Part shown: one piece after another, positions 10,375 to 62,187 of the stretch
How the letters are laid out: each line of letters starts with the position of its first letter
How positions within the stretch are numbered: the stretch's first letter is position 1
Position numbers and translations under genes: made by a program
NCBI GenBank assembly: GCA_964508925.1
Contig: CAZDVM010000008.1
Coordinates: 97,774-161,773, forward strand
Length of the DNA stretch: 64,000 bases
Reading direction: 5' to 3'
Origin: an uncultured Pirellulales bacterium
Lineage (GTDB): Bacteria; Planctomycetota; Phycisphaerae; Sedimentisphaerales; Anaerobacaceae
Notes under the pieces: generated by a model
Told to the model about the DNA's origin: nothing
Database searches by the model: none
What the model saw: the letters and a program-made list of their open reading frames with translations, nothing else

Positions 10375-10799
10375 AGGCTTTTCGGCATTTCATAATTTCA
10401 TTTTCGAAGATCTTTTGCGGGCAAGTCCTATATTATTCGCTTTAAAAGGCGTTGTATGAAGGGGTGGAAAATTTTCTTAAAATTTTTGAATTTTGTTCGG
10501 TTTTTGTTTGGGTTTTCCAGGTCGGTTTGCCGATAGAGTTATACACATTGCAAATGATAAAAAATGATCGGATGAAACCATGAAAAAAGAAGATAATAAA
10601 AAACCTTTATGTGTATTCGGGCCGGGCGGAGATTTCAATTCGATCCTCCGTTCAAGTGCTGAATTATCAGAAAATGAAAGCGGAGGACCGCTGGGTTCGG
10701 CTCTGGCTTTGATCAGGGATACTCTGAAGACTCTTTTGAGTCCGGACTCATATGAATATTCAGATGATGTAAGTGAAGTATTTAACGAAAAGGAAAAAA

Positions 10800-11426
10800 A
10801 TGTTAACACCACGTCAATTGGAATTGTTGAAAACGGTAAAAGATCTAACAGACAGCAACTGTTATTCCCCGTCAATAACAGAGCTGGCGACAGAAGCGGG
10901 AATAAGCCGAAGCACCGCATACGAACATATAAGCGAACTCAAAAACAAAAAAATGCTCACAGCTATCCCCGGCAAGGCTCGCTCTTTGAAAACAACTTCA
11001 AAGGCACTAAAACTGCTTGAGCAGTTAGATCGCCAACCGGAGGCAGAATCGAACGGATCGGGTATTCCGCTTTTGGGAAGGGTAGCGGCAGGTATGCCTA
11101 TTGAGGCGGTTGAAAACAGGGAATATTTGTCACTTGAGGATCAATTTGCCGTTTCCGATGATTCTTTCGCCTTAATGGTCAAAGGTAACAGTATGATCGG
11201 TGACAATATTTTTGACGGGGATTATGTGATCTGCAGGAGAACTGCCGCAGCCCGAAACGGAGAGCTTGTAGTTGCGATCATCGATAATGAAAATGCAACT
11301 CTGAAGAGATTTTTCAAGGAAAGTGACAGAATTCGGCTTCAGCCTTCCAATGAAGATTATGAACCGATCTATACGGACAACTGTCGGATCGAGGGTGTGG
11401 TTACCGGTTTGATGAGAAAATACTAG
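10800..11426 (+). CDS. lexA: LexA repressor
   Basis: LTPRQLELLK...ITELA...GISRSTAYEHI (LexA wHTH), then VAAGMPIEAVEN (Ala-Gly self-cleavage site) and GNSMIGDNI...GDYVICRR (S24 Ser/Lys). The ATG at 10800 has an AAGGA RBS. The ORF-track start at 10773 is a GTG. Confidence 0.9.
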   Translation: MLTPRQLELLKTVKDLTDSNCYSPSITELATEAGISRSTAYEHISELKNKKMLTAIPGKARSLKTTSKALKLLEQLDRQPEAESNGSGIPLLGRVAAGMPIEAVENREYLSLEDQFAVSDDSFALMVKGNSMIGDNIFDGDYVICRRTAAARNGELVVAIIDNENATLKRFFKESDRIRLQPSNEDYEPIYTDNCRIEGVVTGLMRKY

Positions 11427-14966: not shown

Positions 14967-15923
14967 ATGAGCAGTAATTCAGACCAGCAGATCATAGAAA
15001 GGGTGAAGATCCTGCGCGATAAATTTGCAGGGCCTCGAGGTAAAAGCAAGTTTGCCAAGGCGATTGGCATCAGCCCATCGACGTATAATTATTACGAAAA
15101 AGACCGGGTACCGCCTATTGAGACCCTGGTCAAAATGGCGGAACTGTCCGGTGCTGACCTGGTATGGCTTTTGACCGGCAAAAAAAACACAGAAAAACTT
15201 CAGCTGGGGCCTAACCAGGGATTGATAAAGAAGATCATCAGGCTGCTGGATGAAAACCAGGAGCTTGCGGGGCCTCTGGAAGCTTTTGTAGAACTTCTGG
15301 AAGCTCAACAGGAAATAGAGAATAAGGGTAAGTCAAAAAAAGTTAAGGATGATAAGGGCGGGGATAACTGGATCCCGGTGCTGGGAAGAACGGCAGCGGG
15401 GATTGCTTACAAGTGGAACGAAACTTTAAAACAACAAAGGCCCGATGTTACGGAACTTAAAGATATCGTTAAAGAACATACCGGAAAGGACATCTTAGAC
15501 AGCAGGGAGAAGAAAATCGAGATAGACCTGAAAGCCAGACCTTTGATGGAAAATCTTTCGGAGGGGGAAGTTAGCATTGTCAGGGTTACTGAAAATAACG
15601 GGGATGAACTGTTCGAATTCGTGGACAGTGAAAAAATAATCAGTATGTTCTCGGATGCGTTTGCATTGCATATTGACGGCGACAGCATGTCTCCGAAGAT
15701 AAATGACGGTAATATAGTGATAGTCAGTCCTTCAGTTAATGCTATCGAAGGCCAGACAGCAGTGGTAAAGATAAAGGATCAGATAGGAGTTACATGCAAA
15801 TTATTCCGTAAAGATGGGGGAAAAGTGCACCTGATCCCCGTCAATGAGAAATTCGATACTAAAGTATTCGATGAAAATGAACTTGAATGGGCCCTGGCAG
15901 TTTTGTGTCATGTCGATTTTTGA
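14967..15923 (+). CDS. LexA/CI-like self-cleaving repressor: XRE-family HTH fused to S24 peptidase
   Basis: 318 aa. N-term FAKAIGISPSTYNYYEKDRVPPIETLVKMAELSGADLVWLLTG (Cro/C1 HTH). LGRTAAGIAYKWNE (LexA-like Ala-Gly cleavage region). C-term GDSMSPKINDGNIVIV...KLFRKDGG (S24 Ser/Lys dyad). Confidence 0.85.
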   Translation: MSSNSDQQIIERVKILRDKFAGPRGKSKFAKAIGISPSTYNYYEKDRVPPIETLVKMAELSGADLVWLLTGKKNTEKLQLGPNQGLIKKIIRLLDENQELAGPLEAFVELLEAQQEIENKGKSKKVKDDKGGDNWIPVLGRTAAGIAYKWNETLKQQRPDVTELKDIVKEHTGKDILDSREKKIEIDLKARPLMENLSEGEVSIVRVTENNGDELFEFVDSEKIISMFSDAFALHIDGDSMSPKINDGNIVIVSPSVNAIEGQTAVVKIKDQIGVTCKLFRKDGGKVHLIPVNEKFDTKVFDENELEWALAVLCHVDF

Positions 15924-35364: not shown

Positions 35365-36597
35365 TTATTTTACTTCGACAACCGAATTGTATTCGCCGAA
35401 GGGGTTTACTTCTTTTGTTTCGTTGTATGGGTCCTGCTGCCATTTGCCGTCAACTACTATCCTGTAGCGGTGCTTTCCTTTAGGTATTTTCACCTTAGCC
35501 TGCCAGATTCCGCTTTCGCCGACTTTCTTCATGGGGGTTTTTTCGGGCTGCCAGCCGTTGAAGTCACCTGCGATCTGAACTTTTTCAGCCCGCGGGTACA
35601 AACTTACGAATGCCACGGCATCTTTCATGCAGGTGACGCCGTAATAATCGGAAAGCTTTTCATCCAGCGAACTTTTCTGTTCTGTTTTTTCCTGCTGTTT
35701 TGTCGCAGTTGCGGTTTGCTGTTTGGTTTTATTTTCCGGCTGAACTTTGCTGATAATCTCATCAGCGGTCATACTTATCTTTGTCAGCCTGTCATCCATT
35801 TGATTGACTTTTTCGTCCCTGCTGTCGATAACCTGTGAATTCAGTAATTCTTCTGCAAGGGAATTGAAATCCATTCTTCCCCTGCTGCCGGGGTCGTATT
35901 CGCAGATGGGCTGGCCGAAACTGCTTGCTTCCTTGATCTTGGTGTTGAAATTGATAACCGTAGTGAACATCTTATCGGTAAAGTGATTTCTCAGTTCTGC
36001 GAGAATTTCTCTTGCCATTTTGGTTCTTACATCATACATGCTGGCAAGTACTTGGACGTTTACGTCCTGGTTGGATCTTTCGGTAATGATATTCAAGGTC
36101 TCAAGCTGTTTGCTCAAACCATGCAGAGCAAAATAGCCGGTTTCCACCGGAACGATAACTTCCGAAGATGCCTTCAATGCGTTGAAGGTCAAAAGGCTTA
36201 CAGCCGGGGGACAGTCTATAACGACATAGTCGTATTTATCGCGTACTTTTTCGAGTTCTTCCTTTAAGGTGTATTCCCTTCCGACAACGCCGCTCATCTG
36301 CTGTTCGAATGCAGACAGATCGATACTGCTGGGGGCCAATTCGAGATTATCGGTTATCTGCCAGAGAATTTCTGACAATTCGGTTTTTTCGTTTCGGCTT
36401 TTGCTGATCATAACATCGTAAATGCTCTGATCGATCTGGTCTTCGGGCACTGCCAGACCAACGGCGCAATGTGATTGCGGGTCCATATCGACAAGCAGTG
36501 TTTTCTGGCCTAGTTCTGCAAGTGCACTTGCCAGGTTAATTGAAACGGTGGTTTTTCCGCAACCACCCTTTTGGTTAATGACTGCGATCGTTCTCAT
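35365..36597 (-). CDS. ParA/MinD-family ATPase fused to C-terminal CBM48 (AMPK-beta-like glycogen-binding) domain
   Basis: 410 aa. N-term MRTIAVINQKGGCGKTT (deviant Walker A) ...LLVDMDPQ... full ParA core to ~aa 250. Low-complexity Q/T/K linker. C-term ...VQIAGDFNGWQPEKTPMKKVGESGIWQAKVKIPKGKHRYRIVVDGKWQQDPYNE matches the CBM48/AMPK1_CBM consensus (GSFNNW...G.H.YKF.VDG.W..DP). Confidence 0.8.
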   Translation of the reverse strand: MRTIAVINQKGGCGKTTVSINLASALAELGQKTLLVDMDPQSHCAVGLAVPEDQIDQSIYDVMISKSRNEKTELSEILWQITDNLELAPSSIDLSAFEQQMSGVVGREYTLKEELEKVRDKYDYVVIDCPPAVSLLTFNALKASSEVIVPVETGYFALHGLSKQLETLNIITERSNQDVNVQVLASMYDVRTKMAREILAELRNHFTDKMFTTVINFNTKIKEASSFGQPICEYDPGSRGRMDFNSLAEELLNSQVIDSRDEKVNQMDDRLTKISMTADEIISKVQPENKTKQQTATATKQQEKTEQKSSLDEKLSDYYGVTCMKDAVAFVSLYPRAEKVQIAGDFNGWQPEKTPMKKVGESGIWQAKVKIPKGKHRYRIVVDGKWQQDPYNETKEVNPFGEYNSVVEVK

Positions 36598-36982
36598 TGT
36601 TTCTGAACAACCCCCTATCTGAATCCATTCTTTAAACCATAATCCATTATATTCTCTATAAGTATAAAAATACCTATAGTAATTCTTTCGGCCAGTTTTA
36701 CTTTAAAACTTTACAATTTTATGGGACGAGCCGATAAAAAACCCCGATATTAATACTAAAATCGGGATTTTCGAGTGTTTTCCAATATGAAAAAGTAGTG
36801 TAAAAATCTTCATGGCAAGGTTTTACGGCACTTTGAGATATCCTGAACTTTTCAGCAAAAAATATTAAATTTTTTTGAATTTTTATAAAGATTGCTGTTA
36901 TTAATGCCATGAAAACCAAAAACCGCTGGTTTTTAGCTGGCGGTCCCAGGTGATTTTCAGTATTTCTGAAAGCTGAAAATTC

Positions 36983-37342
36983 TTATTTTTTCAGCTTAGC
37001 GATCAATTCTTCGATCTTTTTATGGTTTTCAGGCGTAGTTCTAACAAATACCTGCCCATCATTTTTAATTTGATAAATTCTATGTGGAGACTTCGGTTTC
37101 CGTTTCAGTCTCGATGTCTCCCAATCCTCGGGTATCATGGTTTGGATGAGTTTTGGTAAATTCCTGTTTGTTTCTTCATCGTTTATAAAACAATAGGTTT
37201 TAACCTTGAAATCCGCATTTTCATAGGGTGTTGATCTTTCAGGCTCATCGGATTTATACTCTTTTCTACTAGAAACGCAAATACAGCCTGAAGGAGTTAA
37301 AGTTACCAATACTAAAAGACTCACCAATATTCTCTTTTTCAT
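36983..37342 (-). CDS. Small secreted/lipoprotein (119 aa)
   Basis: Signal peptide with lipobox-like TPSGC. 9-bp stem hairpin plus downstream terminator-like structure at 36905-36982. Confidence 0.5.
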   Translation of the reverse strand: MKKRILVSLLVLVTLTPSGCICVSSRKEYKSDEPERSTPYENADFKVKTYCFINDEETNRNLPKLIQTMIPEDWETSRLKRKPKSPHRIYQIKNDGQVFVRTTPENHKKIEELIAKLKK

Positions 37343-37354
37343 ATTTTTCCCTTT

Positions 37355-37555
37355 TCATTTTCTTAATTCAGTGATTAATTCTTCTATTTTTTTATGATCC
37401 CCGGCTGGATTTTCAACATTAACATCACTTAAAAGCTGCTTGTAATAAATACTGTGGAAACCTGGCTGGCCATTCCAATTTTCAATTATAACAGTATGGA
37501 TGAAATTTAATAAATTCCTGTTTATCAAGCCTTTCATATTTTCTCCCCTTAACAA
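37355..37555 (-). CDS. Small ORF (66 aa) paralogous to the C-terminus of the adjacent lipoprotein
   Basis: C-terminal ...NPAGDHKKIEELITELRK versus neighbour ...TPENHKKIEELIAKLKK. Likely a partial tandem duplication. Coding status uncertain. Confidence 0.3.
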   Translation of the reverse strand: MLRGENMKGLINRNLLNFIHTVIIENWNGQPGFHSIYYKQLLSDVNVENPAGDHKKIEELITELRK

Positions 37556-39057: not shown

Positions 39058-40368
39058 ATGATAAAAGTGCTTAAAGACAAAAAAATGAAAGTTAAAGAAG
39101 CTATTTCCATTGATAAAGATATTTTCAAATGGGAAGACTGGAGATGGCAGCTGAAACATTCTATCAAAAGCATCGAGACATTCGAGGAGCTGCTTGGTAT
39201 CCAGTTCAGGGAAGACATACGTGAAGAGATCGAAAAGACCGTGGAGAAGTTCCCTTTAAGCATTACTCCGTACTACCTTTCATTAATAGATACAGACGAT
39301 ATTAAGAACGATCCTATATTCAAACAGGCCTTCCCTTCCCCTCATGAAATGGACGATCACAAATGTGACATGTCCGACCCGCTTGCAGAAGATAAGGACA
39401 GCCCGGTGGAAGGGATCACTCACAGGTATCCTGACAGGGTGCTTTTCCTTGTAAGTAATGTCTGTTCAATGTACTGCAGACACTGTACTAGAAAAAGAAG
39501 GGTTGGCGACGTCGATTTCGTGCCGGACAAGAAAACTATCTTAAAAGGGATCAAATACATAAAGGATCATCCGGAGGTACGTGACGTGCTGCTTTCGGGC
39601 GGAGATCCGTTTTTGCTATCAAATGAATACCTGGACTGGATTTTGAGCGAACTTGCAGAGATCGAACATCTGGAGGTTATAAGGATCGGCACGAGAACGC
39701 CGGTAGTTCTGCCTCAGAGGATAACGGATGAACTGGTGGATGTTCTCAGGAAATACCAGCCGATCTGGATAAATACACATTTCAACCATCCCAGGGAAAT
39801 AACTAAATCCTCCAGAAAAGCCGTAAAAAAACTTGCAGATGCAGGTATCCCGCTGGGTAATCAGTCGGTACTTCTTGCGGGTGTCAACGACTGCCCGCGG
39901 ATAATGAAGGCCCTGGTACATAAGCTTGTCGAAAACAGGATCAGGCCTTACTATCTGTATCAGTGTGACCTTTCAGAGGGATTGACGCATTTCAGAACGC
40001 CCGTCGGAAAAGGTATCGAAATAATAGAAAATCTCATCGGCCATACTTCCGGATTTTGCGTCCCCAGATATGTAATAGATGCTCCGGGCGGAGGCGGAAA
40101 AATTCCGGTAATGCCGAATTACCTGATATCATGGTCAACGAATAAAGTTGTACTGAGGAATTACGAAGGTGTCATTACCACCTATAAAGAGCCTGATTCG
40201 TATGAGCCTATCTTCTGCGACAGGAAATGCGGCGACTGCAAACTGCAATTAAAAACAGATGACGCCGAAGAGCAAAAGGCCACGGGTATCTGTAAACTTC
40301 TCAACGATTACGATAAGGATATATCACTGACGCCTTCGGAAAATGAACGTCACTCAAGAAGGAAATAG
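39058..40368 (+). CDS. ablA: L-lysine 2,3-aminomutase (radical SAM, KamA/AblA)
   Basis: [12 protein letters not shown] (CX3CX2C radical-SAM cluster of the KamA family). Whole-length KamA similarity ([27 protein letters not shown]). Confidence 0.85.
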
Positions 40369-40370
40369 TT

Positions 40371-41819
40371 ATGGCTGTAATTGACTATATCCTCTTCGGT
40401 CTGTATATGGCAGGTGTCCTCGGGATCGGATACTACCATTTCCTGAGAAACGAGGACAGGGAAGATTATTACGTCGGCAGCAGATCCATCAAGGCTCACC
40501 ACGTAGGTTTATCCATAGTCGCCACCGACGTAGGGGGCGGCTTTTCCATAGGTCTGGGCGGACTTGGGTTCGTGATGGGACTTGCGGGAAGTTGGCTTTT
40601 GTTTACCGGCCTTATAGGTGCCTGGCTGACTGCCGTGATAGTAATACCGAGGATCAAGAAATTCGACAGAAAACATAAGATGTTCACCTATCCGGATTTT
40701 TTAAGGTTCAGATATAATGAGAAAGTGGCCCTTGCAGCTGCCCTGATATCCGGGCTGGGATATATGGGATTTACAGGAGCACAGGTTCTGGCAGGTGCCA
40801 AACTGGCATCGGCTACCCTGATAACCAAGGCTCCTTTCGGTCTTACTCCCCTTGAATTTTCCATCTATATAATCGCCTGTATAACTCTTGTTTACACAGT
40901 GATCGGGGGTTTGAAGGCGGTCATATATACTGATACCGCACAATGGGCGATTCTTTTAACCGGTCTGATATTTGTTACTATACCGGTGACTCTTTTTAAA
41001 CTGGGAGGTATCTCCAGACTGAAAGAGGCACTGCCTTCGAATTACTTTGACCTGACCAACATAACCGCAACCCAGTTTATAAACTGGATGGTGACTATTA
41101 TACCTATCTGGCTGATAGGAATGACACTTTACCAGCGAATGTACGCCTGCAAGAACGAAGAGGAGGCCAAAAAGGCCTGGTACATCGCCGGTCTGTTCGA
41201 GTACCCGGTAATGGCTTTCACCGGCGTTTTTCTTGGGATGTGTGCAAAGGTGCTTATCCCGGAGGCGGAGTCGGAAATGGCAATGCCCATGCTGATATCA
41301 CGGATGCTGCCCATAGGAGTGACGGGGATTGTTATCGCATCTTATTTTTCGGCTATAATGTCAACCGCAGACAGTTGCCTTATGGCATCATCGGGCAACC
41401 TGGTCAACGACGTACTTCACAGGTATATATTCAAGAACAATTCTGACAAGCAGCTGATGTTCTTATCACAGATAGTAACACTTATCATCGGCATAGTCGC
41501 CATCGTGATCGCAAGTGAATTTAAAAAGGTGCTCGATGCCATATTATATGCCTACGCCTTCATGGTTTCAGGGTTGTTCATACCGACACTGGGTGCATAT
41601 CTGTGGAAAAAGGCGAGCTCGACCGGGGCTTTATTGAGCATGATAGCTGGTGGAAGTCTGACATTGACCCTGCAGATAAAGCCCGAACTCCTGCCGGAAA
41701 AATTAAGTAAGACAGGTTTAGATGCCACGGTCTACGGCATTTTGATCTCACTGATCATATTTATAAGTTGTTCCTATATATTTCCCGATAAAGAAAAGAC
41801 GAATCATTATGACATTTGA
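40371..41819 (+). CDS. Sodium:solute symporter family (SSF) transporter
   Basis: 482 aa, ~13 TM helices. SSF-like N-terminal Y..GR...........GG motif region. Inserted between ablA and ablB. Confidence 0.75.
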
Positions 41820-42648
41820 CAAGATAGAAAAGATCGGAAGTTCACTGATACAGCACGGCGAGATGAACAGCAGGATTTACCTGATGAAACTCCATCATGA
41901 GGATTTTCCCGATATTGTCGAAAACATAGATAAGCTGTCCGAAAAAAACAACTATACAAAGATATTCGTCAAGATTCCCGCCGAATTCGAGAAAAAATTC
42001 GAGAAGTTCGGTTATCAGCGGGAAGCCTGTATACCGAAATTCTTCAACGGCAGAAAAGATGCCGTCTTCATGGGTAAGTATTTCAGCGAACACAGGAAAA
42101 ACGATAAAAATCTCGAAATAATTAAAACAAACCTGAAACTGGCTGAGGAAAAAAGGAAAACTCCGGCAAGCAGTGACATCCCGGAAGGTTTCGAGTTCTC
42201 GAAATTGAGTTCTGACAGTGTCGATGAAGCTGCTCAATTGTACAAGGATATCTTCACCAAATATCCTTTTCCCATCTTCGACCCGGTTTACCTGCACAAT
42301 ACCATGGAAAGTCACGTCGATTATTTTTGCGTGCGGGACAAAGGTAAGATGATCGCACTTGCATCGGCTGAAAAGGATGAGGAACACCAAAATGTAGAGA
42401 TGACGGATTTTGCTACCATACCAGAATATCGAGGCAGAGGCCTTGCTTCAGCACTTTTAAAGAAAATGGAAGAGGAAATGAAAGATCAGGGTATGAAAAC
42501 CGCCTATACCATCGCAAGGGCCTTGTCTGCGGGAATGAATATCACCTTTGCAAGGGCAGGCTATGAATTTGCGGGAACATTGATAAACAACACCAACATA
42601 TATTCAGGCCTTGAGAGCATGAACGTGTGGTACAAGCCGCTTAAATAG
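41809..42648 (+). CDS. ablB: Putative beta-lysine N6-acetyltransferase (GNAT)
   Basis: 279 aa, the length class of AblB. C-terminal GNAT motif [19 protein letters not shown]. Positioned in an abl operon. Overlaps the SSF gene by 11 nt. Confidence 0.6.
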
Positions 42649-42666
42649 GCGATACGGCAACACATG

Positions 42667-43929
42667 TCACTTTATTTTTAAGATTTCGTCCCAGCGGGTG
42701 GTGTATCTTGCCGAACGGTGCATTGCCTTCATCTGCCATAGCTGATCCGTACCCTGGGCGGCGAATCTGAGCTGGGAGAAGGGAAAGTCCCGGTTTATCC
42801 GGTCTATTGTTTTCATCAGTTTTTTCGATCTGCTGCGGCTTACGGTATTAAAGAAATTTTCCTGGATATTATCTTCATTTACCAGGCCGGTGAGCATAAG
42901 GCCGGATTTTTTGAATTCCTGCCCCTGCCGGTAGAGTTTTTTCACTATTTTGCGAGCACTTTCAATGAGCTCGGGCGTATTCTGCGTCGGTGTCAGAAAC
43001 TTCACAGTGGCGGAATTATAATAGCTCTGATCGGAATCGAAACGGTTTGTCATCACGAAAACGGTCATGCAGGAGGCGGCCTTTTTTTCTTCTCTTAACT
43101 TTTCGCCCGCCCTTGCTGCATACTGGCTGGTTGCCTCCATGAGTTCATCGAGATCAGTCACCGGCCTGCCGAAGCCGCGCGAACAGGTGATCCCCTTTTT
43201 TGCAGGGGGATTGGACTCCAGGGGATAGCAGCTTATGCCGCGAAGTTCGTAAACGGTTCTTACTCCTACCACGCCGAATGTTTTCCTTACCCTTTCGGCG
43301 TCGGCATCCCGCAGCTGTTTTGCATTTTGGATCCCTATCTTTCTTAGTTTTTTGGCTGTTCTGCGTGCTACCCCCCAGATATCTTCAAGTTCGATCTTTT
43401 CAAGGGCCTTATTGAGATAGAGGGAGTCGCTGAGATCGAGAACGCCGCCTGCTTTCTTGGATTTTTTGGCTATCTTGTTTGCAGCCTTGGCAAGTATCTT
43501 CGTAGGTGCTATACCGACTGAAACCGGGATTCCCATCCACTGCTTGACGGTCGCTTTCATTTCCCTGCAGTACTTTGTCAAATCCGCGGGGATGCCGCTT
43601 AAGTCCAGAAAAGCCTCGTCTATAGAGTAAACTTCGATCTCGGGAGTAAATTCAGCCAGCGTCTGCATTACCCTTGAGGACATGTCGGCATAAAGGGCAT
43701 AGTTTGAAGAATAAACTTCCACATGATGTTTTTCAAGCTGATCTTTGACCTTGAAATACGGAATGCCCATGGGTATGCCGATGGCTTTGGCCTCATTGGA
43801 TCGGGCTACCACACAACCATCGTTATTGGAAAGTACCACCACCGGCTTGTTGTTTAAGTGCGGGTCGAAAACCCTTTCACACGAGACGTAAAAATTGTTG
43901 CAGTCTACTAGTGCAAAAATCTTTTTCAT
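42667..43929 (-). CDS. umuC: Error-prone translesion DNA polymerase V subunit UmuC (Y-family)
   Basis: [19 protein letters not shown]...[19 protein letters not shown]: Y-family polymerase N-terminus. 420 aa. Confidence 0.9.
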
Positions 43930-44366
43930 AGCTGATGAATTACGTAAGTTACAACGCCCCAGACCTCGAATTCCATGGACTCATCCAGTTCCTGTGTCTG
44001 GAAATCCTCGTTTTCCGGTTCCAGATAATATTTCCCTTTGATTATACGGATTCGCTTGACAGTGAGTTCCCCGTTAATATTGGCGATAACCACTTTTTTA
44101 TTGCGAGGTTCAACGGATCTGTCAACAACCAGCAAATCGCCTGAATGAATGCCGGCACCCAGCATGGAATCACCGGTGACACGTACAAAATATGTGGCGG
44201 CGGGATTTTTGATCAGGTACTTGTTTAAATCCAGCTTTTCTTCTTCGTAATCCGATGCCGGTGAAGGAAAACCGGCAGAGACATTAGCCACATACAACGG
44301 CTGTTTGCTGTCGGTTGACCAGTCCGGCTTGAATATGTTTTTTATCTTTATTCCCATGCCCGGCAT
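43926..44366 (-). CDS. umuD: UmuD-like S24 peptidase (translesion synthesis accessory protein)
   Basis: VSAGFPSPA...[25 protein letters not shown]...[11 protein letters not shown]. Overlaps umuC by 4 nt. The true start may be the ATG at 44357 (MGIKIK), which sits 7 nt downstream of a TGTTATAAT extended -10, giving a leaderless configuration. Confidence 0.85.
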
Positions 44367-44428
44367 TATAACAGAAATTATCGAAGTACTGAATTTTTTT
44401 AGTAATAAAGTTAATCACCGATTCATCC

Positions 44429-59940: not shown

Positions 59941-62187
59941 CTATTCGATCACTTCATTCGGCTCGTTCGGCTCGGAAAGTTCGGTTTCTTCCTCGACAAA
60001 ACTGAAGTTATTTCTTTCCACGATATTGTCAGATGTAAGATGAACCATCGCAAGGCTCTGGGCCTTCCTGCCGGCTTCAAGATAAAGTGTCATCGGTTTG
60101 TTCATCTCATAATCTTCGAAGAAAAACTCATCGGCAGAAAGAGTATTTACCACATAATAGCTCTGTTCTGGCTTAAACACAAAACTCAGCGGAAGTTCAT
60201 TCGGCTCTTGTTTGCCCCGGGGTATCAGTGACATCAGCTTTTCATTCAGCAGTGCCCTCTTCTTATAGGCCCCGGTCGCCCTTCCCTGCGGCGTACCCTC
60301 ACTCTGTATCTCATACACCAGCATATCTTCAGGCGTAAAGAGCCTGATCCTCTGACGATCCCTGACCGTCACCTTCAGATCATCTTTTGCATACTCGGAA
60401 TTAAATTTCTCAACCGCCGCTTCGAAGCTGTTCGCATCCTCAACCATCTTCACAAACTCATCGACTTTCGGCTGCATATTCTCAAGTGCTGCAACCTTCT
60501 TCAGATCCTCAGTGACATCTTCCTTAACCGAGTAAATTTTTTCCTCTGCGGTCTCTTCCAGCCTCAAGGCGTTTTTACTTATCACGGTATCAAGTGTCGG
60601 CATCTTCTGCTTCTGAGTTTTCGTCACTCGCGCAAGCATGAACAGCCTGTTACCCATATCCTTCAGCGGCCCGATATTCTTATAAAGCTCCGGAGGCTGA
60701 ATATCGAAAGGTCCGAGGTCACTCAAATCCAGCTCACCTGCAGAGAACAATATCTGGCTCATATAAACCGGTGTACCGGCAGAACCACGCATAAACATTC
60801 TGCCCAGGTTTGCATCTTCCATAACATCCGCCACTCCAAGCATACCGGTCTTACCCGAAAGCACCGGCAGCCCGAACTTTTCGGTAAGCTCCTGTGCCGC
60901 CATCTTATAATCACCCGAAAGCTTCCTGTAATCCTCTCCGGTCAGCATTTCCACACTTTTATCACTCTGCTCAAGCCCAACCTCGGTAAGCGTTTTCGCT
61001 TGCTCCATAACCTTATCGGCCTTGTCGGTGATCCGGTTCTCCGTAATCCTCCTTCGTATCTGGCTCATCACCGAGGAATAACTCTTCAGCCTTTGCTCTT
61101 TCGGCGAATTCGGATCGTTAGGATCGGTCGGCACCTGCTCGGTGAACATGTTCCGGTTTCTCTGATAAAAATTCTCCATCTCCTCGCTCGTAGGCAATTC
61201 GACAGTCTCTAAGATATCGTCCCTTTTCACCGCAATATACTCGAACGCCACCATCTCCGGCAGCTTATACCCGAAGCCGTAAGGATTATCCTCCGTCACC
61301 ACATCCGGCAGCACATCCTTATACTCTTCAAACTGCTGCTCGATCGCCTCCTGCGAAGGCTCCGGCTGCTCATCCAGAAAAAGCTCCGCCGGTACAGCCG
61401 CAAACTGACCCGAAACTTTTGCATTTCTCAGCTTCGTATCGACCCTGATCTCTGTTTCGGTAAAACTCTCACCCGTGCAGACCATCCGGTTATAAGTAAT
61501 TATCCTCATCAGTTTCGCAAAAGTATCTATCACCTGCTCCTGCGATATATTCTGCATTCGGGTAACATTCTGCATCACCTGCTCGAAACTCGACTGCTCG
61601 AAAAGCTGCGGAACGACGTTGGCAAGCTGCTTAGCGGCATCTTCCCTTTTGATCCTTATTCCCGCCTGGTGGGCCTCGTGGTTCAGAAGTATCCAGTAGA
61701 TATGCGGCGGATAACGCTTCTCATAAAAATTATTTATCTGCTCTGCACTTATCGCAATATTATTCGTCACCGCTATCCTCTGCAGAAACTGGGCGATCTG
61801 TGCAGATGTGGTCGTATCGGAAAAAAGCAGTTCCGCTATCAGCAAAGCCCTCAGATCAGGCGCCCTCATCGCCGGCATCGGGATATTCCTCAGCATTAAC
61901 TCCGCCCTCAAAAACTTCAGCGTCTCAAGCTCCCTGGAGGCTATAATACTGTCCTCGCGGGTGATCTCCTTGCCGTCATTATAAACTGCAAGTGTCTCGC
62001 CGAGACCTCTCCTTCTCTTGCCAAGCTGCCTCAGCCATGCACCTGCCACAAATCCGATCATAAGAATTACGATCACGATCGCCATTATCTTACGGTTGTT
62101 CCTGCGGAACCATCTGGTTAAACTCATATTTCGCTCCAAATATCTTTTAGAATCTCTTTGTGGAAAAACTTCAAGTATAAAGGGCAA
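59941..62187 (-). CDS. Periplasmic chaperone PpiD/SurA-like protein with N-terminal membrane anchor
   Basis: 748 aa. Basic N-terminus plus single TM (IMAIVIVILMIGFVAGAWL). Long SurA-N-like helical domain. No clear parvulin signature seen by eye. Confidence 0.5.
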   Translation of the reverse strand: MPFILEVFPQRDSKRYLERNMSLTRWFRRNNRKIMAIVIVILMIGFVAGAWLRQLGKRRRGLGETLAVYNDGKEITREDSIIASRELETLKFLRAELMLRNIPMPAMRAPDLRALLIAELLFSDTTTSAQIAQFLQRIAVTNNIAISAEQINNFYEKRYPPHIYWILLNHEAHQAGIRIKREDAAKQLANVVPQLFEQSSFEQVMQNVTRMQNISQEQVIDTFAKLMRIITYNRMVCTGESFTETEIRVDTKLRNAKVSGQFAAVPAELFLDEQPEPSQEAIEQQFEEYKDVLPDVVTEDNPYGFGYKLPEMVAFEYIAVKRDDILETVELPTSEEMENFYQRNRNMFTEQVPTDPNDPNSPKEQRLKSYSSVMSQIRRRITENRITDKADKVMEQAKTLTEVGLEQSDKSVEMLTGEDYRKLSGDYKMAAQELTEKFGLPVLSGKTGMLGVADVMEDANLGRMFMRGSAGTPVYMSQILFSAGELDLSDLGPFDIQPPELYKNIGPLKDMGNRLFMLARVTKTQKQKMPTLDTVISKNALRLEETAEEKIYSVKEDVTEDLKKVAALENMQPKVDEFVKMVEDANSFEAAVEKFNSEYAKDDLKVTVRDRQRIRLFTPEDMLVYEIQSEGTPQGRATGAYKKRALLNEKLMSLIPRGKQEPNELPLSFVFKPEQSYYVVNTLSADEFFFEDYEMNKPMTLYLEAGRKAQSLAMVHLTSDNIVERNNFSFVEEETELSEPNEPNEVIE

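What the first reader, a model, noticed from the sequence alone, without database searches (positions are those of the whole stretch)
35365..36597. ParA/MinD ATPase fused to a glycogen-binding CBM48 domain: candidate glycogen-granule positioning system
The N-terminal 250 aa are a complete ParA-type ATPase with the deviant Walker A KGGCGKTT. ParA-like ATPases position cellular cargo such as plasmids, carboxysomes (McdA), PHB granules and chemoreceptor arrays. The C-terminal 90 aa match the AMPK-beta/CBM48 glycogen-binding module (GDFNGWQ...GKHRYRIVVDGKW..DP), joined by a Q/T/K-rich flexible linker. Cargo ParAs normally need a separate adaptor such as ParB or McdB. Here the cargo-recognition module appears to be built into the ATPase itself, and no ParB-like gene is adjacent. 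This would be a self-contained granule-partitioning system, which to my knowledge is not a characterised arrangement.
Basis: partly seen in the sequence, partly recalled or inferred. Interest (0 to 1): 0.8.

Follow-up and report, generated by a model that had tools for sequence, protein, structure and literature searches.

The report
Partition ATPase fused to glycogen-binding module
This gene encodes a chromosome-partition-type ATPase (ParA/Soj) with a glycogen-binding module on a flexible tail; the fusion is widespread in one class of planctomycete bacteria, has never been studied, and may physically link the cell's glycogen store to the chromosome-segregation machinery.

Summary
ORF 35365..36597 (minus strand, 410 aa) is a complete Soj/ParA-type ATPase joined by a helix and a disordered linker to a C-terminal CBM48/AMPK-beta-type module. 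The catalytic residues and the glycogen-contact residues are conserved across 142 diverged relatives.

The fusion is not rare. It occurs in at least 541 species-level genomes and thousands of metagenomic proteins of class Phycisphaerae. It is always labelled generically, and I found no paper describing it.

The "self-contained, ParB-less" reading is only partly supported:
- This lineage has a canonical parS-parB centromere, and its ParB keeps an invariant ParA-activating peptide.
- No ordinary parA lies beside that parB. The only ParA ever seen next to it is this fusion.
- In the sister order the fusion is paired with an unknown downstream gene.
- No glycogen genes are linked to it.

Most likely this is the lineage's partition ATPase with a built-in glycogen tether, so that glycogen particles ride on nucleoid-bound ParA. 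Whether a plain parA exists elsewhere in these genomes could not be tested.

Verdict: a new variant of a known kind, with moderately high interest.

The parts
35365..36597 (-). Whole gene: ParA/Soj-type ATPase, linker and CBM48 (410 aa plus stop codon)
   Evidence: ORF list. An identical protein is on record in NCBI and Logan assemblies. There are hundreds of full-length homologues at 60-72% identity.
35833..36597 (-). ATPase domain, residues 1-255 (Soj/ParA class)
   Evidence: Pfam AAA_31 E=1.5e-55 and CbiA. PDB matches: M. xanthus ParA 8ray E=2e-52, T. thermophilus Soj 2e-44, H. pylori Soj 2e-41, McdA only 8e-12. Foldseek top hits are ParA/Soj. K10, K15, D39 and D128 are essentially invariant in 142 relatives.
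36547..36570 (-). Deviant Walker A motif KGGCGKTT (residues 10-17), including signature Lys10 and catalytic Lys15
   Evidence: Read directly from the sequence. K10 and K15 are present in 139 of 142 relatives; the other three have gaps at these columns.
35617..35832 (-). Linker, residues 256-327: a conserved helix (about 264-283), then a disordered K/T/Q-rich tether (about 284-310), then the N-terminal cap of the CBM
   Evidence: AlphaFold models a helix at 240-283 and gives pLDDT below 50 for 281-310. Linker length ranges from 18 to 297 aa across the family. The hydrophobic face at positions 271, 274, 278 and 281 is conserved while the charges vary.
35368..35616 (-). CBM48 / AMPK-beta-type alpha-glucan-binding module, residues 328-410
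   Evidence: Pfam AMPK1_CBM and CBM_48 are above their cut-offs. Aligned to 1z0n, W100/K126/W133/L146/N150 correspond to W349/R379/W386/F400/N404. These positions are conserved in 141, 138 (R or K), 137, 116 (F, Y or L) and 123 (N or D) of 142 relatives. The fold match to AMPK CBM has a target-normalised TM-score of 0.86.
36735..36766 (-). Terminator-like hairpin (CCCGAT-N10-ATCGGG followed by a T-run) between the upstream small ORFs and the gene. It suggests the gene has its own promoter.
   Evidence: Read from the sequence. The automatic scan did not report it because its loop exceeds 8 nt. Function is not shown.
36646..36651 (-). Consensus TATAAT hexamer ending 49 nt upstream of the ATG; a possible -10 element
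   Evidence: Read from the sequence. This is only a consensus match, and planctomycete promoters are poorly defined.

Best explanation
The gene encodes the Phycisphaerae version of the Soj/ParA partition ATPase, which has acquired a built-in glycogen receptor.

Proposed mechanism:
1. With ATP bound, two subunits form the usual sandwich dimer, using signature Lys10, and bind the nucleoid non-specifically.
2. Each dimer then displays two CBM48 modules on long flexible tails. These grip alpha-1,4/1,6-glucan (glycogen) particles.
3. Glycogen is thereby held on and spread over the nucleoid, and is inherited together with the chromosomes.
4. ATP hydrolysis is most likely triggered by the conserved N-terminal K-H-L-G-R-G-L peptide of the lineage's unlinked ParB bound at parS. 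Hydrolysis releases ParA from the DNA, so the tether is dynamic and tied to chromosome segregation.

Shown here: the domain composition, intact catalytic and sugar-contact residues under purifying selection, wide distribution in the class, a canonical parS-parB without a neighbouring plain parA, and the fusion as the only ParA found beside that parB.

Inferred: DNA binding, the partnership with ParB, glycogen as the ligand in vivo, and positioning or inheritance as the outcome.
For: - Architecture and fold.
- Purifying selection on both active sites in 142 sequences that share only 34-70% identity.
- The CBM is always at the extreme C-terminus behind a linker of 18-297 aa, which is tether-like.
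- The apparent CBM-less relatives are frameshift or truncation artefacts.
- Family size and taxonomy: (541 species genomes).
- Lineage ParBs (at least 64% identical to each other) all keep K(H/R)LGRGLxSL(L/I).
- These ParBs have 1-2 perfect or 1-mismatch parS sites within about 100-950 bp upstream (most within 600 bp).
- No plain ParA lies within +-10 kb in five fully flanked loci, whereas distant ParBs found in the same scan have a 255-284 aa parA immediately upstream, which serves as a positive control.
- The order parS-parB-fusion occurs in L027, L084, L089 and L122.
- Basic residues are retained at the equivalents of HpSoj K199 and K230 and of M. xanthus R238 (R196 and K220).
- Four of the six ParB-pocket positions remain hydrophobic.
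- Precedent for nucleoid tethering of storage granules (PhaM/PhaF/PhaH for PHB, AlgP for polyphosphate): PMC13052382.
Against: - A plain parA elsewhere in these genomes could not be excluded, because no whole-genome access was available.
- The ATPase domain is more diverged from canonical ParAs (mean 36% identity) than those are from each other (mean 54%). That is what a neofunctionalised paralogue would look like.
- Only two of the four HpSoj DNA-contact positions are basic, and a typical family member keeps 1-2.
- ParB-pocket positions 99 and 175 are polar in this protein.
- parB lies near the fusion in only two lineages out of about 80 loci. My rough estimate of the chance expectation is about 0.4, so this enrichment is weak.
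- The NCBIfam ParA equivalog cut-off is not reached (117 against 180 bits).
- There is no linkage to glg genes, and no direct evidence that these organisms form glycogen granules. The literature offers only genome-based predictions.
- In Phycisphaerales the fusion has a different, unknown linked partner.
Confidence: 0.45

Rival explanations
1. The protein is a dedicated orphan ParA paralogue that positions glycogen granules independently of ParB. Cargo recognition is built in, and activation comes from intrinsic turnover or from an unrecognised partner. A plain chromosomal ParA exists elsewhere in the genome.
For: - No parB or adaptor lies in the 64-kb window or in 78 of 80 related loci.
- The ATPase domain has diverged from canonical ParAs (36% against 54% identity).
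- In Phycisphaerales the fusion forms a tight two-gene unit with an unknown 400-500 aa protein that carries an invariant N-terminal peptide FD(D/E)LADLFLG. This resembles parA-parB or mcdA-mcdB modules.
- The ParB pocket is partly polar.
Against: - No plain parA is seen beside the lineage's parS-parB, although ParB keeps its ParA-activating peptide.
- The Phycisphaerales partner has no homologue in the window or in the Sedimentisphaerales loci.
- A ParA that binds its cargo permanently and lacks a cargo-borne activator cannot run a Brownian-ratchet gradient. It could only act as a static tether.
Confidence: 0.2
2. Here glycogen is the scaffold or regulator rather than the cargo. The protein is the chromosomal ParA, and the CBM parks or sequesters it on glycogen bodies. 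This would resemble the way PadC-bactofilin scaffolds sequester ParA in Myxococcus. The result would be a spatial sink or landmark for ParB-parS movement, or a coupling of segregation (and perhaps replication control) to the level of carbon reserves, in the way the AMPK CBM senses glycogen.
For: - It rests on the same ParB-parS evidence as the best explanation.
- There is precedent for scaffold-sequestered ParA (PMC5703909).
- The closest sequence and fold relatives of the module are the AMPK beta CBMs, whose role in AMPK is regulatory (my own knowledge).
- DNA-contact residues are only moderately conserved, which fits a ParA that spends time off the nucleoid.
Against: - There is no evidence that glycogen has a defined position in these cells.
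- Long linkers of variable length (18-297 aa) suit a loose tether better than a precise landmark.
- No regulatory contact between the CBM and the ATPase domain is predicted. The inter-domain region has low confidence.
Confidence: 0.2
3. The CBM48 does not target storage granules. It might bind soluble malto-oligosaccharides or another alpha-glucan as a signal, recruit glycogen-metabolising enzymes, or serve as a protein-protein interaction module. In that case the ATPase would have a role unrelated to glycogen partition.
For: CBM48 modules occur in many enzyme contexts such as branching enzymes, pullulanases and glucan phosphatases. There is no genomic link to glg genes.
Against: The five positions that contact glucan in AMPK beta1 are conserved across 142 diverged sequences, which argues for genuine alpha-glucan binding. 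No catalytic domain is attached. The protein has no signal peptide and so is cytoplasmic, where the only abundant alpha-glucan is glycogen (an inference).
Confidence: 0.1
4. The fusion is an artefact: a chimeric assembly, or a frameshift that joined two separate genes.
For: None.
Against: The identical protein was recovered from independent assemblies. Hundreds of full-length homologues share the same architecture at 34-72% identity. The reading frame is continuous.
Confidence: 0.01

Closest known systems
Chromosomal ParA/Soj of ParABS systems (M. xanthus ParA 8ray, T. thermophilus Soj 1wcv, H. pylori Soj 6iub)
   Same: [quoted passage not shown] These are the best sequence and structure matches. 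The lineage has a canonical ParB with an LGRGL peptide and parS sites.
   Different: - It carries a C-terminal extension of about 155 aa ending in a CBM48.
- It is not encoded next to parB in most genomes.
- It shares only about 36% identity with canonical ParAs, which share about 54% with each other.
- Only half of the DNA-contact lysine patch is retained.
McdA-McdB carboxysome positioning and other cargo ParAs (PpfA, ParC, PomZ)
   Same: The concept is shared: a ParA-family ATPase on the nucleoid distributes a non-DNA cargo.
   Different: Those systems recognise cargo through a separate adaptor that also stimulates the ATPase. Here the cargo-binding module is part of the ATPase itself. Similarity to McdA is low (E=8e-12). 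No adaptor gene is linked in this order.
PhaM, PhaF, PhaH (PHB granules) and AlgP (polyphosphate granules), the nucleoid tethers of storage granules
   Same: The proposed outcome is the same: storage granules attach to the nucleoid so that they are spaced out and inherited (PMC13052382; PMC3556143).
   Different: Those tethers are histone-like or helix-hairpin-helix DNA binders with no ATPase and no homology to ParA. No glycogen equivalent has been described.
AMPK beta-subunit CBM and other CBM48-bearing targeting proteins
   Same: The CBM48 fold matches, and the Trp/Lys(Arg)/Trp/Asn glucan-contact positions are conserved. In both cases a non-catalytic partner is brought to glycogen.
   Different: The AMPK context is a eukaryotic kinase complex. 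Here the module is fused to a bacterial partition ATPase.
PadC-bactofilin scaffold of M. xanthus
   Same: It is a non-nucleoid structure that captures ParA and organises ParABS (PMC5703909). This is analogous to the rival reading in which glycogen captures ParA.
   Different: PadC is a separate adaptor protein on a protein polymer. Here the capture module is fused to ParA and would bind a polysaccharide.

Membership tests
ParA/Soj-type (deviant Walker A) partition ATPases | Deviant Walker A KGGxGK(T/S) with an N-terminal signature lysine | tested here: met
   KGGCGKTT at residues 10-17. K10 and K15 are present in 139 of 142 relatives.
ParA/Soj-type (deviant Walker A) partition ATPases | Walker A' aspartate and Walker B aspartate | tested here: met
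   D39 is present in 140 of 142 relatives and D128 in 142 of 142. D39 aligns to D60 of M. xanthus ParA.
ParA/Soj-type (deviant Walker A) partition ATPases | General family models above their curated cut-off | tested here: met
   Pfam AAA_31 scores 188 bits against 27, and CbiA 68.8 against 25.4.
ParA/Soj-type (deviant Walker A) partition ATPases | Equivalog-level model for ParA partition ATPase above its cut-off | tested here: not met
   NCBIfam ParA_partition scores 117.2 bits against a cut-off of 180. All other ParA, RepA and MinD equivalogs are also below their cut-offs.
ParA/Soj-type (deviant Walker A) partition ATPases | Encoded next to its parB (and parS) | tested here: not met
   The window has no ParB motif and no parS with up to 3 mismatches. 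ParB is absent from 78 of 80 related loci. The exception is the sublineage L027/L084/L089/L122, where parS-parB lies directly upstream.
ParA/Soj-type (deviant Walker A) partition ATPases | Basic surface for non-specific DNA binding | tested here: inconclusive
   HpSoj K199 and K230 align to R196 and K220, which stay basic. K227 and K247 align to F217 and G237, which do not. M. xanthus R238 aligns to K220. A typical family member keeps 1-2 of the 4 positions basic.
ParA/Soj-type (deviant Walker A) partition ATPases | Hydrophobic pocket that binds the ParB N-terminal peptide | tested here: inconclusive
   M. xanthus V116/L150/L152/L155/L187/L192 align to Q99/V133/L135/F138/I170/S175, so four of six are hydrophobic. 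Positions 133, 135 and 138 are conserved in the family, while 99, 170 and 175 vary.
ParA/Soj-type (deviant Walker A) partition ATPases | ATP-dependent dimerisation and partner-stimulated ATPase activity | not testable with these tools
   This needs biochemistry or multimer structure prediction.
CBM48 / AMPK1_CBM glycogen-binding modules | Family models above their curated cut-off | tested here: met
   AMPK1_CBM scores 50.2 bits against 26.8, and CBM_48 42.2 against 22.4.
CBM48 / AMPK1_CBM glycogen-binding modules | Beta-sandwich fold that superposes on solved CBM48 structures | tested here: met
   The domain model has pLDDT 90.3. Foldseek matches AMPK beta1/beta2 CBM with a target-normalised TM-score of 0.86 and rmsd of 1.4-1.8 A, and GlgB CBM48 with a query-normalised TM-score of up to 0.80.
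CBM48 / AMPK1_CBM glycogen-binding modules | Glucan-contact residues (rat beta1 W100, K126, W133, L146, N150; the identity of these residues is from my own knowledge of the 1z0n literature) | tested here: met
   They align to W349, R379, W386, F400 and N404. These are conserved in 141, 138, 137, 116 and 123 of 142 relatives.
CBM48 / AMPK1_CBM glycogen-binding modules | Binding of glycogen or amylopectin shown experimentally | not testable with these tools
   This needs pull-down or ITC experiments with the purified domain.
McdAB-type cargo positioning systems | ATPase belongs to the McdA clade | tested here: not met
   McdA (6noo) matches at E=8e-12 over residues 1-169 only, against 2e-52 for chromosomal ParA.
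McdAB-type cargo positioning systems | Adjacent gene for a small adaptor or activator protein | tested here: not met
   The downstream gene is a convergent SASA esterase. The two upstream small ORFs (60 and 119 aa) have no Pfam hit, are not conserved in the 80 loci, and one carries a lipoprotein-type signal.
MinD | MinD equivalog score, and a membrane-targeting amphipathic helix at the extreme C-terminus | tested here: not met
   minD_bact scores 56.9 bits against 212.9. The C-terminus is a CBM48 domain rather than a helix.

The most novel reading that the evidence does not exclude
In class Phycisphaerae the chromosome-partition ATPase doubles as the glycogen-partition machine. One ParA, driven by ParB-parS, would segregate chromosomes while carrying glycogen particles on built-in CBM48 tethers. 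That would make it the first ParA with an integral cargo receptor and the first glycogen positioning or inheritance system described in bacteria.
Probability: 0.35. Interest if true: 0.8.

Novelty: new variant of a known kind. Interest (0 to 1): 0.62.

Why it matters
ParA/MinD ATPases are the general positioning engines of bacterial cells. In every studied case the cargo is recognised through a separate adaptor that also fires the ATPase. A ParA with the cargo receptor fused to it challenges that design rule, and it gives a simple, genetically compact system for asking how tethering and ratcheting are balanced.

How bacteria place and inherit glycogen, their most common carbon store, is unknown. 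A 2025 review of bacterial organelle positioning does not mention glycogen at all.

If the protein is also ParB's partner, it would link chromosome segregation physically to the energy reserve, in a phylum already known for unusual cell biology (no FtsZ).

The hypothesis is directly testable with a few purified domains and one cultured Phycisphaerae strain.

Tried and rejected
1. Linkage to glycogen genes. Nothing was found in the window, in conserved-neighbour clustering of 80 loci, or in motif scans for GlgA, GlgC, GlgP and GH13 over 1.26 Mb. With about 0.4 genome-equivalents sampled, this only shows absence of linkage.
2. The conserved downstream neighbour C1 (present in 42 of 80 loci). It is a secreted protein with a PEP-CTERM anchor, separated by gaps of 100-400 bp, and it is absent from the window. 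I rejected it as a partner.
3. Hsp20 upstream in 28 loci, including the window. I treated this as inherited synteny and did not follow it up.
4. The idea that the Phycisphaerales downstream protein is a degenerate ParA/MinD. hhalign gives probability 0.2%, and there is no PDB or Pfam hit, so I rejected it.
5. The idea that the conserved motif at 314-320 (KLSDYYG) is a cis-acting ParB-like peptide. The domain model shows it is the N-terminal helix and strand of the CBM fold, so I rejected it. The conserved helix at about 269-282 has the same hydrophobic spacing as the ParB peptide, but so do many amphipathic helices. I left that as an untested idea.
6. Close relatives without a CBM. They are frameshift or truncation artefacts.
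7. A parS site near the gene. None was found with up to 3 mismatches.
8. The promoter and terminator scan was uninformative.
9. Taxonomy of distant subgroups through cluster names gave only Phycisphaerales, Planctomycetota or "bacterium". The many NCBI labels \"uncultured Pirellulales\" on 60-70%-identical proteins are probably placeholder taxonomy.
10. Ten literature searches found no description of the fusion. The last one was swamped by unrelated matches to 'MCDA'.
11. A whole-genome count of ParA genes was not possible with the tools.
Full report
OBSERVATION

Pfam finds a ParA-class ATPase (AAA_31, residues 1-180, E=1.5e-55; CbiA 4-231) and, above their curated cut-offs, AMPK1_CBM (337-410, E=3e-13) and CBM_48 (320-389, E=1e-10). 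NCBIfam equivalogs for ParA, RepA, MinD and the rest are all hit, but all below their cut-offs; ParA_partition scores 117 bits against 180.

Against the PDB, the ATPase half matches chromosomal ParA/Soj best: M. xanthus ParA 8ray at E=2e-52, T. thermophilus Soj at 2e-44, H. pylori Soj at 2e-41. MinD (about 1e-18) and McdA (8e-12) are far weaker. The last 100 residues align end to end with the AMPK beta1/beta2 carbohydrate-binding modules (E=4.5e-8).

A full-length AlphaFold model gives a confident beta-sandwich for residues 328-409. It is preceded by a long helix (240-283) and a disordered stretch (281-310). A domain-only model reaches pLDDT 90.3 and pTM 0.80. It superposes on AMPK beta CBMs (target-normalised TM-score 0.86, rmsd 1.4-1.8 A) and on the CBM48 of glycogen branching enzymes.

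RESIDUES

Using the printed alignments, I mapped functional residues and measured their conservation in an alignment of the query plus 141 fusion proteins. Each of those is the representative of a 50%-identity cluster and shares 34-70% identity with the query.
- Catalytic residues: K10 (signature lysine), K15, D39 and D128 are essentially invariant.
- Sugar contacts: the positions that contact sugar in rat AMPK beta1 (W100, K126, W133, L146, N150; their identity is from my own knowledge of the 1z0n work) correspond to W349, R379, W386, F400 and N404. They are kept in 141, 138 (R or K), 137, 116 (F, Y or L) and 123 (N or D) of 142 sequences.

Both halves are therefore under purifying selection for their canonical activities.

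The DNA-binding surface is less clear. M. xanthus R238, whose R238E variant lacks DNA binding (PMC12462528), and HpSoj K230 both align to K220. HpSoj K199 aligns to R196. HpSoj K227 and K247 (PMC6393308) align to F217 and G237. A typical family member keeps 1-2 of these four positions basic.

Of the six hydrophobic residues that form the ParB-peptide pocket in M. xanthus ParA, four stay hydrophobic here (V133, L135, F138, I170) and two are polar (Q99, S175).

HOW COMMON IT IS

The fusion is a large family.
- The word-indexed search returned 7410 hits. The best 120 are all full-length, 60-72% identical, and carry both ParA and CBM Pfam domains. Where named, they are called \"AAA family ATPase\" or \"chromosome partitioning protein\" from Phycisphaerae, Sedimentisphaerales or Planctomycetota.
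- A scan of one genome per species found relatives in 541 genomes.
- In the exhaustive search of 50%-identity representatives, 141 of the best 150 have ParA plus a C-terminal CBM. The linker is 18-297 residues long (median 141), and the CBM is always at the extreme C-terminus.
- The few without a CBM are frameshifted or truncated.
- The largest distant subgroup belongs to the order Phycisphaerales (3360 hits at E<1e-30).

Ten literature searches found no description of this protein. They included a 2025 review of bacterial organelle positioning that never mentions glycogen.

CONTEXT

In the window the gene stands alone.
- Downstream is a convergent SASA esterase.
- Upstream are a 385-bp spacer, two small ORFs without Pfam hits, and Hsp20.
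- The spacer contains a terminator-like hairpin at 36766..36735 and a TATAAT hexamer at 36651..36646.
- The rest of the 64 kb holds no glg gene, no parB and no second ParA.

Clustering the neighbours in 80 related loci shows only lineage synteny: a secreted PEP-CTERM protein downstream in 42 loci, Hsp20 in 28, and PurE plus Memo in 23. There is no ParB-like or glycogen gene among them.

THE ParB LEAD

A motif scan of all fetched DNA found canonical ParB in two loci. In L027 it lies 323 bp upstream of the fusion gene on the same strand. In L014 it lies 6.7 kb away.

I then fetched 46 ParB loci from metagenomes.
- The ParBs of this lineage (at least 64% identical) all keep an invariant N-terminal K(H/R)LGRGLxSL(L/I) peptide, the canonical ParA-binding and activating motif.
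- They have one or two perfect or one-mismatch parS sites within about 100-950 bp upstream, most within 600 bp.
- None has a plain parA within reach, including five loci with full 10-kb flanks. The only ParA beside them is the fusion (L084, L089, L122).
- In the same scan, six more distant ParBs show the textbook arrangement with a 255-284-aa parA immediately upstream. This serves as an internal positive control.

So this lineage runs a normal ParB-parS centromere whose ParB still expects a ParA, and the only Soj-class ParA I could find is the CBM48 fusion.

Four things weigh against a simple orthologue:
- The fusion's ATPase domain is about 36% identical to canonical ParAs, whereas those share about 54% with each other.
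- The proximity to parB occurs in only two lineages.
- I could not scan whole genomes for an unlinked plain parA.
- In Phycisphaerales the fusion is not near parB. Instead it is followed, 34-64 bp downstream, by a conserved 400-500-aa protein with no Pfam, PDB or ParA similarity and an invariant N-terminal FD(D/E)LADLFLG peptide. That family has 100 members. All labelled ones but one are from Phycisphaerales or Planctomycetota (the exception is a partial protein labelled Thermoleophilia). Ten fusion/partner pairs lie on contigs of identical length. The family is absent from the window and from the Sedimentisphaerales loci.

MECHANISM

What is shown: an active-site-intact Soj-class ATPase, a sugar-site-intact CBM48 on a flexible tether, and the lineage-level ParB-parS facts above.

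What I infer as most likely (confidence 0.45): ATP-bound dimers sit on the nucleoid. Their two CBM48 modules hold glycogen particles, so glycogen is spread over the nucleoid and inherited with it. ParB-parS supplies the hydrolysis trigger, which makes the tether dynamic.

Rivals:
- Glycogen acting as a sink, landmark or metabolic regulator of the chromosomal ParA, by analogy with the PadC-bactofilin scaffold (PMC5703909) (0.2).
- A CBM with a role unrelated to granules (0.1).
- An assembly artefact, which is excluded.

COMPARISON AND VERDICT

The protein is a member of the ParA/Soj superfamily and of CBM48 by every sequence and fold criterion I could test. It fails the equivalog threshold and the gene-neighbourhood criterion for a textbook chromosomal ParA. 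It is not an McdA or a MinD.

In proposed function it would resemble the PhaM, PhaF and AlgP nucleoid tethers of other storage granules, but it would be ATP-driven. I found no precedent for a ParA-family ATPase with a cargo-binding module fused to it, in the literature I could search or in my own knowledge.

I rate it a new variant of a known kind, with interest 0.62. The decisive missing item is a whole-genome count of ParA genes in Phycisphaerae, followed by glycogen-binding and ParB-stimulation assays.

Noticed in passing
L130:11562-12926, L131:11430-12935, L132:11600-12880 (Phycisphaerales loci; not in the window): A conserved gene lies 34-64 bp downstream of the ParA-CBM48 gene in Phycisphaerales. 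It encodes a 400-500 aa protein with an invariant N-terminal FD(D/E)LADLFLG peptide and has no Pfam or PDB match. The family has 100 members, all annotated as hypothetical. It could be the partner or activator of the fusion ATPase in that order.
   Followed up: partly
L087, L097, L098, L100, L107, L014 and other ParB loci (about 100-950 bp upstream of parB): In this lineage the canonical parS sites (TGTTTCACGTGAAACA) sit directly upstream of an orphan parB, with no parA in the operon. Neighbours include an RNase III-like gene and a D-tyrosyl-tRNA deacylase-like gene (both identified by eye) rather than rsmG/gidB.
   Followed up: partly
P0129 (from the representative search; not in the window): An 1812-aa protein has about 17 tandem CBM48-like repeats that match the C-terminal module of this gene (35% identity). 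Its taxon and function are unknown.
   Followed up: no
window 36983..37342 (-) and 37355..37555 (-): Two tandem small ORFs (119 and 66 aa; the second was called as 60 aa on the source contig) share the C-terminal motif HKKIEELI(A/T)(K/E)L(K/R)K. The longer one starts with a lipoprotein-type signal (…LTPSGC). Neither has a Pfam hit, and neither is conserved in the 80 related loci.
   Followed up: partly
window 39058..42648 (+): A lysine 2,3-aminomutase (Radical_SAM plus LAM_C), an SSF-family transporter and a GNAT acetyltransferase lie in a row behind a MarR regulator. This layout is typical of N-epsilon-acetyl-beta-lysine osmolyte synthesis (my own knowledge) and suggests a salt-adapted organism.
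   Followed up: no
window 59941..62187 (-): A 748-aa ORF with a TTG start has no Pfam family at E<=1e-5.
   Followed up: no
window 42667..44400 (-) and 10773..11426 / 14967..15923 (+): There are several LexA/S24-peptidase genes, and a Y-family polymerase (IMS plus DUF4113) next to an S24 peptidase. This looks like an SOS-mutagenesis-type cassette.
   Followed up: no
L001-L080, downstream of the fusion gene (for example L027:3102-3722): A protein of about 205 aa with a signal peptide and a C-terminal PEP-CTERM-type anchor lies near the fusion gene on the same strand in 42 of 80 loci (immediately downstream in 29), but not in this window. This is probably inherited synteny.
   Followed up: partly
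record titles: Many MAGs that carry 60-70%-identical copies are labelled "uncultured Pirellulales bacterium", and one is labelled "Candidatus Aegiribacteria". These labels sit oddly with the Sedimentisphaerales and Phycisphaerae labels of equally similar proteins. They are likely placeholder taxonomy or binning errors.
   Followed up: no
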